A stretch of 32,504 nucleotides of DNA from Bacilli bacterium (GTDB lineage Bacteria > Bacillota_I > Bacilli_A > RF39 > UBA660). A program made the translations under genes and the position numbers. This document shows, one piece after another, positions 27,096-32,504 of this stretch. The notes under the pieces were generated by a model. That model searched no databases and was not told the origin of the DNA. It worked only from the letters and a program-made list of their open reading frames with translations. Position 1 is the stretch's first letter. Each line of letters begins with the position of its first letter. The stretch is from NCBI GenBank assembly GCA_900766325.1, contig CAAFVA010000093.1, positions 1-32,504 of the forward strand, written 5' to 3'.

Positions 27096-27348
27096 ATATT
27101 AAAATTAGTCTTGTGCCGTTTCTTATATCTGTTTCTATAACTAGTTGGTTATTACTATATCTTTGACTACTTTCTTTATTATATAAACTTTTATGTATAT
27201 CTATTTGGTATTTACCATCGGTTTCTTCGTATAGATATTTAGATATTAGCTCAATTATATTCCCAATTTTTCTACTTACCGGAATCATTATATCATAAGT
27301 TTCATCAAGCTCAGGCAAATTCAATATAACAAGAACCTTATTTTCCAC
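27094..27348 (-). CDS. YukD/EsaB-like ubiquitin-fold T7SS protein
   Basis: 84 aa. VLVILNLPELDETYDIMIPVSRKIGNII...NGTRLILI fits the YukD beta-grasp pattern. The GTG start overlaps the essC stop (TAGTG). Confidence 0.75.
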   Translation of the reverse strand: MENKVLVILNLPELDETYDIMIPVSRKIGNIIELISKYLYEETDGKYQIDIHKSLYNKESSQRYSNNQLVIETDIRNGTRLILI

Positions 27349-30300
27349 TATAATGCATCTCCTTTATCAACAACATATTTTATTATTTTAGCTTCTCCAT
27401 TTACAGTTACAAATCCAATGTTATTAAAGTTCTCTTTCATGTCCTCATTTGATAAATTACCAAAATTAAATATTATCTGATTTTCAACTCCAGTCCCCAA
27501 CCAAATCATAGAATTTCTATCTATCGCGGTGTCAAACCAGTCTTCTATTTCTAAATTCTTAAATTCTTCATACGTATCAAACAGTAACAATTTGGACTTT
27601 TTAAATCTGTTTATTGAAGACATAAGTGCATTTAAATAAGTTATATATTTTTCACTAATATGATTTTTAAGCTCATTGAAGCCGATTATCATATATATTC
27701 TTACTTTTAAATCAGCTTCCTTATTTACTCCTTTTATCATTTCTATTAAATTTAAATCAAAATTATCTTTTACTACTTTTATACTAGAATTATTAAGATT
27801 TACAATTCCTAACGCATCAATTAGCGTAATTTCTATATTATCTAATGATAAAAATTCTTTAGCCAAAGCGTTTATGAATAATAACTTATCACTTAAATCG
27901 TTTGATAAAATAGTAGTCGTTGAATTATTATCAAAATTATAAAAGTACACATCTTTATCATCACTGGAATACCCTATTGGAATTTTATTAAGGTTCTCTA
28001 TTTTTTCCATCATCATGTCAATTGTTACTACCTCAGGTAATTTTACAACTGATTTTGCTCTTGTTTTATACTTTTCTTGCAACTGCTTTGACATCTCACG
28101 AATTTGAGTATTAACTTTATCTTTCTCACAAATATACGCTGTTTGAAATTCATAATAATTTTCATTATATAATGCCACACCTCTCCCAAAGTATTTTTTA
28201 GGAGATAATCCTTTAGGAGCATTTAACAGACTCCTATAGACAGTATCATCAGGTTGTTGAAGTGATACCTTGTTTAGGAATAACTGAGACGTTCTTGCTC
28301 CAATAGAATTATTAACTGATGTCGTAACAATAAATATTATTCCATATTTAGAGCCTTCTCTTATAAGCCCTTGCATAGCATCTGCTAATCTACTATTACT
28401 TTCTTGAAATGCTTCCCAATAGTTTATGACAACAACGATCAAAGGCAACTTTTGATTACTTTCATTCATGTAGTTTCTGTAATTTCCACCATATTCTGCA
28501 AATAATGCTTTTCTTCTATCAGCCTCTTTGTCAATCATTACGAGAGTATTCATCATTTGATCTTGATCATCAGTGGTTGTAACACATCCTACTTGTGGAT
28601 ATTTAGCAAATATACGCAAAGTCTCTGCTCCATAATCAAATATGTAAAAATTTACTTCTTCTGGACTATGATTAACACAAGTAGTATATATAAGCGTTGT
28701 AAGTAAATTTTCTTTGCCTGAACCGGCCATTCCATAAACTATTAAATGTCCAACATTTGTCAAATCCACGGTTAAAAGACCTTGTGTTTGTGCTGACGGA
28801 TTATCATATTCACCAATAACGGGATTAATAATGTATGGTTGTGGTCTATAATTATACTTTTCTATAATTTCATCAAGCGAAATTACAGCTGGGATACTAC
28901 TTAACCATAATTTATTTATCTTGATTTTTTGTTTTTTTGAAATATCTACTATGTATCTTACTATATTAGTTAATTGGTCTCCTAGTTTCTCTTTATTAGT
29001 AAAATCCATATTATTACTATCATCACTAACTGTTTTTACAGAATAACCAATAGAATTAATAAAATTTAATGAATCATCTACTTTTTTTACTACCCTATCG
29101 GTGGGAATATAATCTGCACCAGAATATCCAGACTGTCCAATATCAAAATATTCGTCATATCCAACTTGTAGATAAAACCTACCCGTTTCTTTTATACTTG
29201 CAGCGTCTGGTTTTCTTATCATTTCCATCGAATCACTTCTATCTTGAACTTTTAAACATATTTTGAACTTTGAATTCGCCCATATTTGATCATTAACAAC
29301 ACCACTTGGCTTTTGGGTAGCCAGTATAAGATGTACACCTAGTGAACGTCCTATACGAGCAGTAGATATAAGTTCATCCATAAATTCAGGCTGTTGGCTT
29401 TTTAACTCAGCAAATTCATCCGCTATTAAAAACAGATGGGCAATGGGTTCTTTTATCTTTCCTTCCCGATATAGTTTTTGATATTTATATATATCAATTG
29501 TACCCTCACCCAGCCTGTCACGTTCTGTGTTGAATTTAGCCTGTCTCCTTTTTAATTCACTATTTATAGAAACTAATGTCCTGTTCATTTCGGCCGTATC
29601 CAAATTAGTTATAGTCCCAGCTAAATGAGGAAGACAAATACCTTTTTCTCTATTTTCAAAAGCACCCGCAAGTCCTCCACCTTTATAATCAATAAGTACG
29701 AATTGAACTTCATTTGGATGAAAATTAATTGCCATAGACAAAACAAAAGTTATAATAAATTCTGATTTACCAGAACCAGTCGCCCCGGCTATTAATCCAT
29801 GTGGTCCATGTGCTTTTTCGTGCAAATCTAACATAAATAATTCTCTATCCGCATGTACACCAATAGGAGTTTTCAAGTTTTCTACTGGATTATTAGTTTT
29901 CCACCTATTTAAAATATTCAATTGTTCTATTTTGGATACATTATACATTTCTAAAAAAGTAAGACTTTTAGGCAAAACAGCCGAACCAGTTTTTGTTGGT
30001 ATTGGTATATTTAAAAGCTTAGATGAAATTAAATTCATATCAATAGTCATAAGTTCTGGATTTTTAAATTGCTGTGTAAAACTATATTCATCACCAGGTT
30101 CAATAATATAGCTACCAGTATCTAATACATATGAAAAAGTCTTGCATTGAGGAGGTAAATCTACTATAGCATCCTCTAAAAATAGCATTGAAAACCCAAT
30201 ATTACCTTCACTTGATAAAATTTCATTTATAATTGGAACATCTTTTATTTTTCTATAAGAGTCAGTAACTATTAAATAATACGTAGAGAATTTCTTGTAG

Positions 30301-32083: not shown

Positions 32084-32104
32084 CTTTTTTTGTATGTGTT
32101 TACT

Positions 32105-32504
32105 TTATTCTTCAATAATATCTAAATCTTTCTCAAAATCACTTACATATTTTACAAGTGTAGGTTTTCCTCGTGATAACACGAAACATAAATCATCAGA
32201 AATATTTTCTTTTAATTCAGAAGTTCTAACCGTAGGTTTGAAAGTAAATTGGTCATTTATACCATTACCTATCCAAATTCCGTTTCCAGGATTAAATCCT
32301 TCTTTAAACCATGATTCGTACTCTACTTTCTTTACACTTTCTATTTCGTCTATAATAACAAATCTTATCAAATTTAGATCTTTTATTTTATTAAAGAAAT
32401 CGGAAATGCTATTTTTATTATTATCGTTTAATTTTGAAATAAAGTTAGATATACCAATTATTACAAAAACGATTGGTTTTTGATTACTAAAAATTTCTTT
32501 GTTA
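32105..32504 (-). CDS. C-terminal end of a second FtsK/SpoIIIE (EssC-like) protein; the gene continues beyond the window
   Basis: The frame is open to the window edge (..NKEIFSNQKPIVFVIIGISNFISKLNDNNK..LIRFVIIDEIES..). The last 110 aa or so align by eye with the last 110 aa of the EssC at 27348-31943: IIG, W-F, IW(L/I)G-G-x-(N/D)Q, KEN, and (I/V)KYV. Confidence 0.6.
   Translation of the reverse strand, partial: NKEIFSNQKPIVFVIIGISNFISKLNDNNKNSISDFFNKIKDLNLIRFVIIDEIESVKKVEYESWFKEGFNPGNGIWIGNGINDQFTFKPTVRTSELKENISDDLCFVLSRGKPTLVKYVSDFEKDLDIIEE

What the first reader, a model, noticed from the sequence alone, without database searches (positions are those of the whole stretch)
27348..32504. A complete, separately transcribed EssC-YukD unit directly downstream of another EssC-like gene
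The ORF ending at 32105 is open to the window edge, and its C-terminus is collinear with the C-terminus of the 1531-aa EssC that follows. Shared by-eye blocks are xIxxIIG, W-F, IW(L/I)GxGxx(N/D)Q, KEN and (I/V)KYV. A perfect 9-bp terminator (32057-32083) and a TTGACA-18-TATACT promoter separate the two genes, so the second essC is not simply a continuation of one operon. In T7SSb the C-terminal ATPase domain of EssC is the known substrate-recognition and variability module (the essC variants of S. aureus and Listeria). Two co-resident EssC proteins with divergent C-termini would therefore imply two cargo specificities. They might share one membrane apparatus, because no EssA, EssB or EsaA gene lies downstream of the second essC. 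Gene order is also unusual, with yukD/esaB after essC and coupled by TAGTG. D2 has Walker A GSGKE (Glu in place of Ser/Thr) and D3 has no P-loop at all.
Basis: partly seen in the sequence, partly recalled or inferred. Interest (0 to 1): 0.8.

Follow-up and report, generated by a model that had tools for sequence, protein, structure and literature searches.

The report
Two complete type VII secretion cassettes
An uncultured gut bacterium carries two anciently diverged, separately promoted type VII secretion gene sets side by side, each with its own EssC motor, and sister species keep only one or the other at the same chromosomal spot.

Summary
The ORF open at the window edge is the C-terminus of a full 1545-aa EssC (EssC1), seen on same-species contigs. 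It is followed by a terminator-like hairpin, a TTGACA-18-TATACT promoter and a second full EssC (EssC2, 1531 aa) joined to a YukD-like gene by TAGTG.

The two EssCs are old paralogues, 38% identical overall (D1 65%, D3 19%). They fall in two separate clades, and both are under purifying selection (dN/dS about 0.08-0.09).

The main new result is comparative. In related uncultured Bacilli MAGs, one chromosomal slot (ABC/HerA ... PedC-like/SpoU/ZnuA/MraZ) holds one of three things:
- a type-1 cassette (YukD1, four WXG100, DUF4176, an LXG-like toxin, EssC1);
- a type-2 cassette (EssC2, YukD2, six small helical proteins, a membrane-anchored HExxH protein);
- both in tandem, as here.

The type-2 promoter is conserved even where the cassette stands alone. 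No cassette protein matches EssA, EssB or EsaA, so the "shared apparatus" argument is not supported. GSGKE in D2 and the P-loop-less D3 are general EssC traits, not features of this copy.

Verdict: a new variant of T7SSb organisation. Functional independence of the two systems is inferred, not shown.

The parts
32105..32504 (-). 3' end (last 132 codons plus stop) of essC1. This is the last gene of the type-1 T7SSb cassette and is cut by the window edge.
   Evidence: Translation is open to the edge. It is identical to the C-terminus of the 1545-aa protein at L001:5202-9839. TIGR03928 EssC scores 1041 bits.
32050..32083 (-). Terminator-like hairpin (32057-32083) with a T-run (32050-32056), 22 nt after the essC1 stop.
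   Evidence: Pattern scan. Fold of -14.9 kcal/mol, z=-4.6. L006, L007 and L008 have different hairpin-plus-T-run sequences at the same place.
31962..32007 (-). Type-2 cassette promoter block: -35 TTGACA (32002-32007), 18-nt spacer, -10 TATACT (31978-31983), then the conserved TATATTTAGAATAGAA.
   Evidence: 11/12 consensus match. The 46-nt pattern matches all tandem loci and the type-2-only loci L037, L038, L041 and L042, and matched in 0 of 100 window shuffles.
27348..31943 (-). essC2, 1531 aa as the ORF is listed (probable start is the GTG at 31937). It has FHA1/FHA2, two hydrophobic helices, D0, D1 (Walker A at nt 29763-29786), D2 (GSGKE at nt 28710-28733) and D3 (nt 27351-28058, no P-loop).
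   Evidence: Pfam FHA and FtsK_SpoIIIE. TIGR03928 scores 941.5 bits against a 778.4 cut-off. The best PDB sequence match is B. subtilis YukB, 9qks, E=1e-119. Per-domain identities are and motifs. dN/dS is about 0.08.
27094..27348 (-). yukD2, an 84-aa divergent YukD/EsaB-like protein. It is translationally coupled to essC2 through the TAGTG overlap.
   Evidence: Overlap read directly. PF08817 E=0.013, below cut-off. hhalign of the YukD2 group against a group containing proteins that pass the PF08817 cut-off gives 98.7%, E=1.5e-16. The AF2 model was too poor to test the fold.
26618..26962 (-). s114, a small helical protein of the WXG100 superfamily by profile comparison.
   Evidence: NCBIfam ESAT6_2 E=4.5e-5, below cut-off. 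hhalign to the type-1 WXG100 family W1d gives 94%. Conserved in all type-2 cassettes.
26309..26611 (-). s100, a WXG100-like protein with the motif GWVG.
   Evidence: Pfam WXG100 E=6e-4, below cut-off. hhalign to W1d gives 86%.
25808..26293 (-). s161, the best-conserved small protein. It has a WxG motif (QGWAG) and a conserved YxxxD motif near the C-terminus. Candidate main substrate.
   Evidence: Orthologue sequences. hhalign to s114 and W1b gives 88-90%. dN/dS is 0.065.
25487..25795 (-). s102a, a small protein of unknown family that is conserved in the cassette.
   Evidence: Synteny. No family match.
25195..25524 (-). s109, a WXG100-like protein (motif AWTG). It is the closest cassette-2 counterpart of the type-1 EsxA-like W1a.
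   Evidence: hhalign to W1a gives 95.8%, E=7.7e-9. Synteny.
24887..25195 (-). s102b, a small protein of unknown family that is conserved in the cassette.
   Evidence: Synteny. No family match.
23124..24803 (-). p559, the conserved last gene of the type-2 cassette. It has an N-terminal membrane anchor and an invariant HExxH...E...AE motif. The predicted fold has no PDB match.
   Evidence: Hydropathy. Invariant columns H257, E258, H261, E299, A302. 68 homologues, none with a Pfam domain. AF2 pLDDT 87, pTM 0.85. Best Foldseek PDB hit E=0.34.

Best explanation
The window's right end spans the junction of two complete, independently promoted T7SSb gene cassettes that are ancient paralogues.

essC1 is the last gene of a type-1 cassette. 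Its order is YukD1, four WXG100 proteins, a 142-aa helical protein, DUF4176, an LXG-like polymorphic toxin with a small downstream gene (presumed immunity), then EssC1. This looks like a toxin-export system.

After a terminator-like hairpin, a conserved sigma-70-type promoter drives the type-2 cassette. Its order is EssC2, the translationally coupled YukD2, six small helical proteins (at least four of the WXG100 superfamily), and a membrane-anchored HExxH protein.

Proposed mechanism: each EssC forms its own membrane ATPase and channel with its own YukD partner. Each exports only its own cassette's WXG100-type proteins and their partners. Discrimination comes from the strongly diverged D3, FHA and other non-D1 regions, while the conserved D1 supplies ATPase activity.

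Shown here: gene content, paralogy, distribution across species, conserved promoter, intactness and purifying selection. Inferred: separate transcription in vivo, separate translocons, and non-overlapping cargo.
For: Both proteins are full-length EssC.
- Searches show the domains and family scores.
- Identity is 38% overall. By domain: FHA1 20%, FHA2 27%, TM 37%, D0 35%, D1 65%, D2 39%, D3 19%.
- An NJ tree of 37 EssCs splits type 1 and type 2 into separate clades. The co-resident pairs of L001, L006, L007 and L043 are divided between them.

The same slot carries different cassette content in different species.
- Type-1 only: L009-L015 and L035.
- Type-2 only: L036, L037/38, L041, L042 and L046.
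- Both: window/L001-5, L006, L007, L008 and L045.
- L043 has the reverse order.
- L046 and L006 share 87% EssC2 identity but differ in whether type 1 is present.

The regulatory features are conserved.
- The type-2 promoter block is conserved in tandem and type-2-only loci alike.
- A hairpin plus T-run follows essC1 in four species, with different sequences.
- The type-1 cassette has a different conserved promoter and leader.

Both copies are maintained. dN/dS is 0.08-0.09 for each, and D1 has a canonical Walker A in every homologue.

Each cassette has its own YukD (29-30% identity between the two) and its own WXG100-like set.

In the literature, EsxA export requires compatibility with the cognate EssC, and divergent EssCs do not cross-complement (PMC13355648).
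Against: There is no transcript or secretion data. The hairpin is modest and could allow read-through.

Only about 10 kb on each side of the loci was visible. A species scored as "type-2 only" could carry a type-1 system elsewhere in its genome. EssA, EssB or EsaA could also be encoded elsewhere and shared by both EssCs.

The cassette-2 small proteins reach WXG100 only below curated cut-offs or by profile-profile comparison of helical proteins, which can overstate relatedness.

No toxin and immunity pair is evident in cassette 2, so its cargo and purpose are unknown.

All the genomes are MAGs or metagenome contigs. The identical arrangement on five independently assembled same-species contigs argues against misassembly.
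Confidence: 0.7

Rival explanations
1. Shared-apparatus model. EssC2 is an extra specificity module that plugs into one common membrane machinery (EssA, EssB, EsaA) used also by EssC1.
For: Both EssCs keep FHA domains. In B. subtilis and S. aureus these domains bind EssB (review PMC10765036). The same review states that six core components are always encoded, so they could lie elsewhere in the genome.
Against: No EssA, EssB or EsaA match was found in any protein of either cassette. The genes bordering the slot upstream (ABC transporter, HerA) and downstream (PedC-like, SpoU, ZnuA, MraZ) are unrelated housekeeping types. The FHA domains are the second most divergent parts (20-27% identity), which is unexpected if both bind one partner. 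Each cassette carries its own YukD, and the type-2 cassette occupies the slot alone in at least five species.
Confidence: 0.15
2. Mixed translocon. EssC1 and EssC2 co-assemble into hetero-hexamers, which broadens the cargo range of a single pore.
For: D1 is 65% identical and the architectures are collinear. The genes are adjacent, so they could be co-expressed if the hairpin leaks.
Against: The TM region is only 37% identical and D0 35%. The promoters and leaders differ. Each type exists without the other in sister species. The L046 and L006 pair shows that one can be lost while the other stays intact.
Confidence: 0.07
3. One copy is a redundant relic of a duplication or a transfer and is on its way to loss.
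For: Sister species carry only one type, so loss does happen.
Against: Both ORFs are intact in five species-level lineages. D1 Walker A is canonical in both. dN/dS is 0.08-0.09 for both. All nine cassette-2 genes are retained in order.
Confidence: 0.05
4. The type-2 cassette is a recently acquired mobile island.
For: Its presence is patchy among related species. A variable ORF6N/RhuM/Fic islet lies 1-2 kb downstream, between SpoU and ZnuA.
Against: There is no integrase, transposase or repeat boundary. GC content matches the surroundings. The cassette sits at the same slot in every species. EssC2 divergence (57-87%) is of the same order as that of the flanking housekeeping genes, as expected for long residence.
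Confidence: 0.05

Closest known systems
Enterococcus faecalis OG1RF T7SSb locus with two essC genes (bioRxiv 10.1101/2020.05.11.077669 / PMC7790226)
   Same: Two essC genes lie in one T7SSb locus, and possible redundancy or division of labour has been discussed.
   Different: The OG1RF EssC2 is reported to lack transmembrane domains, and the locus encodes EsaA, EssB and EsaB once. Here both EssCs are full length with FHA and TM regions. Each has its own YukD and WXG100-like set and its own promoter. No EssA, EssB or EsaA is in the locus.
essC variant modules of S. aureus, Listeria, group B Streptococcus and B. cereus (review PMC10765036; PMC11406982)
   Same: EssC sequence co-varies with a downstream set of substrate genes. 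D3 is the most variable domain, as it is here. The result is an alternative cassette at a fixed locus.
   Different: In those species there is one essC per strain. Its 5' two-thirds is conserved and only the 3' end is swapped. Here the whole protein differs (38% identity), the alternatives are whole systems including YukD, and some species carry both.
Paralogous ESX-1 to ESX-5 systems (T7SSa) of mycobacteria
   Same: Several diverged complete type VII systems sit in one genome, each with its own EccC-type ATPase and cognate substrates. This comparison rests on established knowledge and was not tested here.
   Different: The ESX loci are dispersed and include EccB, EccD, EccE and MycP. Here the two systems are adjacent, are of the T7SSb (EssC, TIGR03928) kind, and show only EssC and YukD as recognisable machinery.
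B. subtilis YukB/YukD and the canonical six-component T7SSb
   Same: EssC2 aligns with YukB (PDB 9qks) at E=1e-119. The YukD-like and WXG100-like partners are present.
   Different: No YukC/EssB, YueB/EsaA or YueC/EssA equivalents are in the locus. The yukD gene follows essC instead of preceding it.

Membership tests
T7SSb EssC (NCBIfam TIGR03928 T7_EssCb_Firm) | Whole-protein score above the curated equivalog cut-off (778.4 bits) | tested here: met
   EssC2 scores 941.5 bits and EssC1 scores 1041.3 bits.
T7SSb EssC | N-terminal FHA domains | tested here: met
   PF00498 scores 27.3 bits for EssC2 and 20.9 bits for EssC1, against a cut-off of 20.7.
T7SSb EssC | Two transmembrane helices between the FHA region and the ATPase region | tested here: met
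   EssC1 has hydrophobic segments at 264-282 and 297-315. EssC2 has one at 294-312 plus a weaker stretch at about 251-277 that is visible in the sequence. This region aligns with the YukB membrane region.
T7SSb EssC | Tandem FtsK/SpoIIIE ATPase domains, with canonical Walker A and Walker B in D1 | tested here: met
   D1 has GxxGSGKS and IADEFAE in both proteins. D2 has GSGKE and D3 has no Walker A. The same pattern is reported for EssC in general (PMC13355648).
YukD/EsaB (Pfam PF08817) | Sequence match above Pfam's gathering score (27 bits) | tested here: not met
   The window protein scores 16.6 bits, E=0.013. Its orthologues score 13.8-16.3 bits or nothing.
YukD/EsaB (Pfam PF08817) | Homology to proteins that pass the cut-off, plus adjacency to essC | tested here: met
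   The essC-adjacent proteins of L031 and L032 pass the cut-off (33.3 and 41.9 bits). hhalign of the YukD2 group against a group of four that includes them gives 98.7%, E=1.5e-16. Against YukD1 it gives 99.6%. The gene follows essC in every type-2 locus.
YukD/EsaB (Pfam PF08817) | Ubiquitin-like beta-grasp fold | tested here: inconclusive
   The AF2 model has pLDDT 57 and pTM 0.36. Its strand-helix order is compatible with a beta-grasp, but there is no significant Foldseek hit. Weak profile hits to ubiquilin UBL domains have E=0.07.
Canonical six-component T7SSb (EsxA, EsaA, EsaB, EssA, EssB, EssC; review PMC10765036) | EsaA, EssA and EssB encoded with essC | tested here: not met
   No Pfam or NCBIfam match to these families in any protein of either cassette. 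The flanking genes are unrelated housekeeping types.
Canonical six-component T7SSb | EsaA, EssA and EssB encoded anywhere in the genome | not testable with these tools
   Only about 10 kb on each side of each locus could be fetched.
WXG100 (PF06013 / TIGR03930) | Score above the curated cut-off for the cassette-2 small proteins | tested here: not met
   s100 scores 20.4 bits against a Pfam cut-off of 27.3 and 15.6 against a TIGR cut-off of 44.85. s114 scores 23.6 bits on ESAT6_2 against a cut-off of 100. Profile-profile links to the type-1 WXG100 families are 86-96% for s109, s114, s161 and s100. The type-1 protein W1a does pass (50.5 bits against 44.85).
S. aureus/Listeria-type essC variant locus | A single essC whose 5' part is conserved and only whose 3' end varies | tested here: not met
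   Two complete essC genes are present, and divergence runs along the whole length.
E. faecalis OG1RF-type dual essC | A second EssC that lacks transmembrane domains | tested here: not met
   Both proteins have the TM region.

The most novel reading that the evidence does not exclude
This lineage of uncultured gut Bacilli may run type VIIb secretion with EssC and YukD as the only conserved machinery, with no EsaA, EssA or EssB anywhere in the genome. It would keep two such minimal systems as interchangeable or stackable cassettes at one locus. In the type-2 cassette, a membrane-anchored HExxH protein of unmatched fold (p559) would supply the extracytoplasmic function, loosely like MycP in T7SSa. 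The type-1 cassette would be switched by a poly-G tract in its promoter spacer.
Probability: 0.25. Interest if true: 0.8.

Novelty: new variant of a known kind. Interest (0 to 1): 0.6.

Why it matters
T7SSb work rests on a few cultured Bacillota that have one EssC and a fixed six-protein core. Specificity there is studied by swapping the EssC C-terminus between strains.

This locus offers a natural comparison. Two whole EssC-YukD-WXG100 systems, 38% identical, sit in one cell. Sister species hold either one alone at the same chromosomal site. That makes several questions directly testable:
- which EssC regions discriminate cargo;
- whether YukD pairs specifically with its own EssC;
- whether paralogous T7SSb systems are insulated from each other, as mycobacterial ESX systems are.

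If EssA, EssB and EsaA are truly absent, the statement that six core components are always encoded (PMC10765036) would need revising, and a minimal T7SSb would be defined. The systems occur in common, uncultured human and animal gut bacteria, where T7SS-mediated antagonism is almost unexplored.

Tried and rejected
1. Recent tandem duplication. Rejected because identity is 38% and the two proteins fall in separate clades.

2. Fragment or generic FtsK-like upstream ORF. Rejected because it is a full 1545-aa EssC that passes TIGR03928.

3. Fold test for YukD2. The AF2 model was poor (pLDDT 57) and Foldseek returned nothing meaningful. A profile search of PDB sequences gave only weak ubiquilin hits.

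4. Function of p559 by structure. The model is confident, but no PDB neighbour is better than E=0.34. Weak metallopeptidase hits (7sci, 6ait, E=1.7) are not significant. Pfam and NCBIfam gave nothing.

5. Census of tandem against solo arrangements by scanning JGI metagenomes for the promoter block. The first pattern had a wrong spacer. The corrected pattern, which I validated on the loci I already held, also found nothing. The lineage appears to be absent from that collection.

6. Rfam. No family matches in the window or in the type-1 leader.

7. Literature search for minimal or uncultured-lineage T7SSb. Nothing relevant was found.

8. Reading GSGKE in D2 and the P-loop-less D3 as an anomaly of the second copy. 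Rejected as a trait of the lineage and of the family.

9. HerA/DUF87 as a T7SS component. It lies just upstream of either cassette type in the closest species, but it has its own terminator and is missing next to L036. I left this open.
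Full report
OBSERVATION

The genes of interest lie on the minus strand.
- The frame that ends at 32105 is open to the window edge (132 codons).
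- Its product aligns with the last 120 residues of the 1531-aa protein encoded at 27348-31943, at 30% identity and E=3e-11.
- That 1531-aa protein has an FHA domain and FtsK_SpoIIIE domains.
- Between the two genes lies a hairpin at 32057-32083 followed by a T-run. It folds at -14.9 kcal/mol with z=-4.6 against shuffles.
- A TTGACA-18-TATACT match lies at 32007..31978.
- The stop of the large gene and the GTG start of an 84-aa gene overlap as TAGTG.
- D1 carries GATGSGKS, D2 carries GMAGSGKE, and no Walker A follows in D3.

WHAT THE UPSTREAM ORF IS

An exact look-up of the 1531-aa protein found it on 11 metagenome contigs. Four of the five places shown (L001-L004) extend upstream of the window. 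There the truncated ORF is the end of an intact 1545-aa protein (L001:5202-9839) with an FHA domain, two hydrophobic helices and FtsK_SpoIIIE domains.

Both proteins exceed the NCBIfam EssC equivalog cut-off. EssC1 scores 1041 bits and EssC2 scores 941 bits, against 778. The best solved relative of EssC2 by sequence is B. subtilis YukB (9qks, E=1e-119).

The two proteins are collinear over their full length but only 38% identical. By domain the identities are FHA1 20%, FHA2 27%, TM 37%, D0 35%, D1 65%, D2 39% and D3 19%. A trivial recent duplication is excluded.

THE TWO CASSETTES

On L001, and on the 75-77% relatives L006 and L007, EssC1 is the last gene of a "type-1" cassette. Its members are:
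- a YukD-like gene;
- four WXG100 genes, one of which passes TIGR03930;
- a 142-aa helical protein;
- a DUF4176 protein;
- a large polymorphic protein of 900-1700 aa with a helical N-terminus, glycine-rich hydrophobic segments and, in L001, a C-terminal HEIGH motif;
- a small variable gene;
- EssC1.

EssC2 opens a "type-2" cassette. Its members are:
- EssC2 and YukD2;
- six small proteins (s114, s100, s161, s102a, s109, s102b);
- a 559-aa protein, p559.

Profile-profile comparison links s109, s114, s161 and s100 to the type-1 WXG100 families with probabilities of 86-96%. Their direct Pfam and NCBIfam scores are below the curated cut-offs.

YukD2 itself is below Pfam's YukD cut-off (16.6 bits against 27). 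Its family aligns at 98.7% probability (E=1.5e-16) with a group of essC-adjacent proteins. Two of that group pass the cut-off. A structure-based test failed because the model was poor.

COMPARATIVE RESULT

I scanned one genome per species with EssC1 and looked up the contexts of EssC2 homologues. The organisms are MAGs labelled "uncultured Bacilli bacterium" from human and animal guts, with about 29% GC.

They share a chromosomal slot bounded upstream by an ABC transporter and a HerA/DUF87 ATPase. Downstream it is bounded by a PedC-like gene, SpoU, ZnuA/YidD and the MraZ-RsmH-FtsL-PBP cluster.

The slot holds:
- the type-1 cassette alone in L009-L015 and L035;
- the type-2 cassette alone in L036, L037/38, L041, L042 and L046;
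- both, in the order type 1 then type 2, in the window's species (L001-L005), L006, L007, L008 and L045.

A more distant MAG (L043) has the opposite order. There the type-2 cassette is followed by a DUF4176 gene and then a type-1-clade EssC.

An NJ tree of 37 EssCs separates the two types into distinct clades. Co-resident pairs are split between them.

Flanking housekeeping proteins are 72-91% identical among all these species, with no grouping by cassette type. L046 has only type 2, although its EssC2 is 87% identical to that of L006, which has both. Cassette content therefore changes on a short timescale.

Both EssCs are under similar purifying selection where they co-occur. dN/dS is 0.08-0.09, although dS is near saturation.

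TRANSCRIPTION SIGNALS

Promoter-like matches in the region are no more frequent than in shuffles. The promoter call therefore rests on conservation.

The 46-nt block TTGACAA-N17-TATACTWATAYYTAGAATAGAA is present upstream of EssC2 in all tandem loci. It is also present in the type-2-only loci L037, L038, L041 and L042, where it follows HerA and its terminator. L036 has a close variant with TATAAT. The block matched in 0 of 100 window shuffles.

After the EssC1 stop, L006, L007 and L008 each have a different short hairpin followed by a T-run. The function is conserved without sequence conservation.

The type-1 cassette has a different conserved promoter and leader.

Separate transcription is thus well supported by comparison, but it has not been measured.

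MACHINERY

None of the proteins of either cassette matches EssA, EssB/YukC or EsaA/YueB in Pfam or NCBIfam. The flanking genes are unrelated. A recent review states that six core components, including these three, are always encoded (PMC10765036).

I could only see about 10 kb on each side, so their presence elsewhere in the genome cannot be excluded.

That reasoning loses its basis. The first EssC has none nearby either, and the type-2 cassette stands alone in the slot in several species.

WALKER MOTIFS

D2 reads SGKE in 86 of the 120 listed EssC2 homologues. The type-1 EssCs checked directly also carry it. D3 has no Walker A in any of the 120.

A 2026 study reports a canonical Walker A only in D1, a partial one in D2 and none in D0 or D3 for EssC in general. 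It finds that D1, but not D2, is needed for export. It also finds that EsxA export requires a compatible EssC (PMC13355648).

These features are therefore ordinary for the family. The compatibility result supports, by analogy, the inference that two EssCs this divergent serve separate cargo sets.

p559

This protein ends every type-2 cassette.
- It has an N-terminal membrane anchor.
- It has invariant H257, E258, H261, E299 and A302 across 32 sequences.
- It has 68 homologues, none with a Pfam domain.
- Its AF2 model is confident (pLDDT 87, pTM 0.85).
- No PDB neighbour is better than E=0.34.

Its role is unknown. A membrane-anchored extracytoplasmic zinc-dependent enzyme associated with the system is a reasonable guess, but it is untested.

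COMPARISON WITH KNOWN SYSTEMS

The closest published case I found is E. faecalis OG1RF. It has two essC genes in its locus, but the second is reported to lack transmembrane domains and the locus has a normal EsaA/EssB/EsaB set.

The essC variant modules of S. aureus, Listeria, GBS and B. cereus swap only the 3' end of a single essC.

Functionally the nearest analogy is the set of paralogous ESX systems of mycobacteria. That comparison rests on established knowledge and was not tested here.

I found no description of stacked, full-length, separately promoted EssC-YukD cassettes, or of an either/or/both polymorphism of whole T7SSb systems at one locus. The searchable library is incomplete.

VERDICT

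It is partly wrong on three points: the shared apparatus, the claim that the gene order is unusual, and the claim that the Walker motifs are unusual.

This is a new variant of T7SSb organisation in an uncultured gut lineage. Interest is moderate to high. It would rise if whole-genome scans confirm that EssA, EssB and EsaA are absent.

Noticed in passing
L006:4002-4012, L007:3236-3246, L011:3958-3966, L035:2534-2543 (upstream of yukD1; outside the window): A G9-G11 homopolymer fills the spacer of the conserved type-1 cassette promoter (TTGAC-Gn-TATTTGA-TATTAT). In 820 kb of ~29% GC loci, only 5 runs of 8 or more G or C occur, and 4 of them are here. This suggests slipped-strand phase variation of the type-1 system. 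The region was not recovered for the window's own species.
   Followed up: partly
window 23124-24803 (-): p559 has an N-terminal membrane anchor and an invariant HExxH...E...AE motif. It has 68 homologues, none with a Pfam domain. Its AF2 model is confident (pLDDT 87), but no PDB structural neighbour is better than E=0.34. It is the last gene of every type-2 cassette.
   Followed up: yes
window 25808-26293 (-): s161 has a WxG motif (QGWAG) near residue 36. It also has a YxxxD motif (AYSRSD) that is conserved as YKKSD, YKQRD and YANKD in the L036, L037 and L039 orthologues I inspected. YxxxD is the general T7SS export signal, which I state from established knowledge. s161 is the most conserved small protein (92% to L007, dN/dS 0.065).
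   Followed up: partly
L043:10001-24611 (GCA_947628565.1, CANRAH010000005.1): A more distant MAG has the opposite arrangement. The type-2 cassette comes first, followed by a DUF4176 protein, then a type-1-clade EssC (45% identical to EssC1) at the contig end.
   Followed up: partly
L046:4399-15536 compared with L006: The EssC2 of L046 is 87% identical to that of L006. L046 lacks the whole type-1 cassette, which points to recent gain or loss.
   Followed up: yes
L007:1181-3160, L037:7777-9885, L041:6427-8373, L046:4399-6321 and others: A 640-700-aa HerA/DUF87-type ATPase with an acidic, low-complexity N-terminus lies directly upstream of whichever cassette type occupies the slot, and it has its own terminator. 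A 46%-identical copy also lies near essC in L039. Whether it is linked to T7SS is unknown.
   Followed up: partly
L001:1188-4874 (and its counterparts in L006-L035): The large type-1 protein is highly polymorphic: 26-56% identity and 917-1724 aa. In L001 it has three roughly 75-residue internal repeats, glycine-rich hydrophobic segments and a C-terminal HEIGH motif. A variable small gene follows it. It gets no Pfam LXG hit, so calling it "LXG-like" rests on position and N-terminal helical character only.
   Followed up: partly
window 8386-14163 (-): A phosphorelay set lies next to the cell-division (dcw) genes. It consists of an Hpt protein, a response regulator with an HD domain, and two hybrid histidine kinases.
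   Followed up: no
window 19384-20485 (+) compared with L001:21459-22559: YidD (78 aa) and ZnuA (307 aa) are separate overlapping ORFs in the window but are called as one 366-aa fusion on L001. The RhuM-like ORF at window 20701-21021 is 106 aa, against 155 aa on L001.
   Followed up: no
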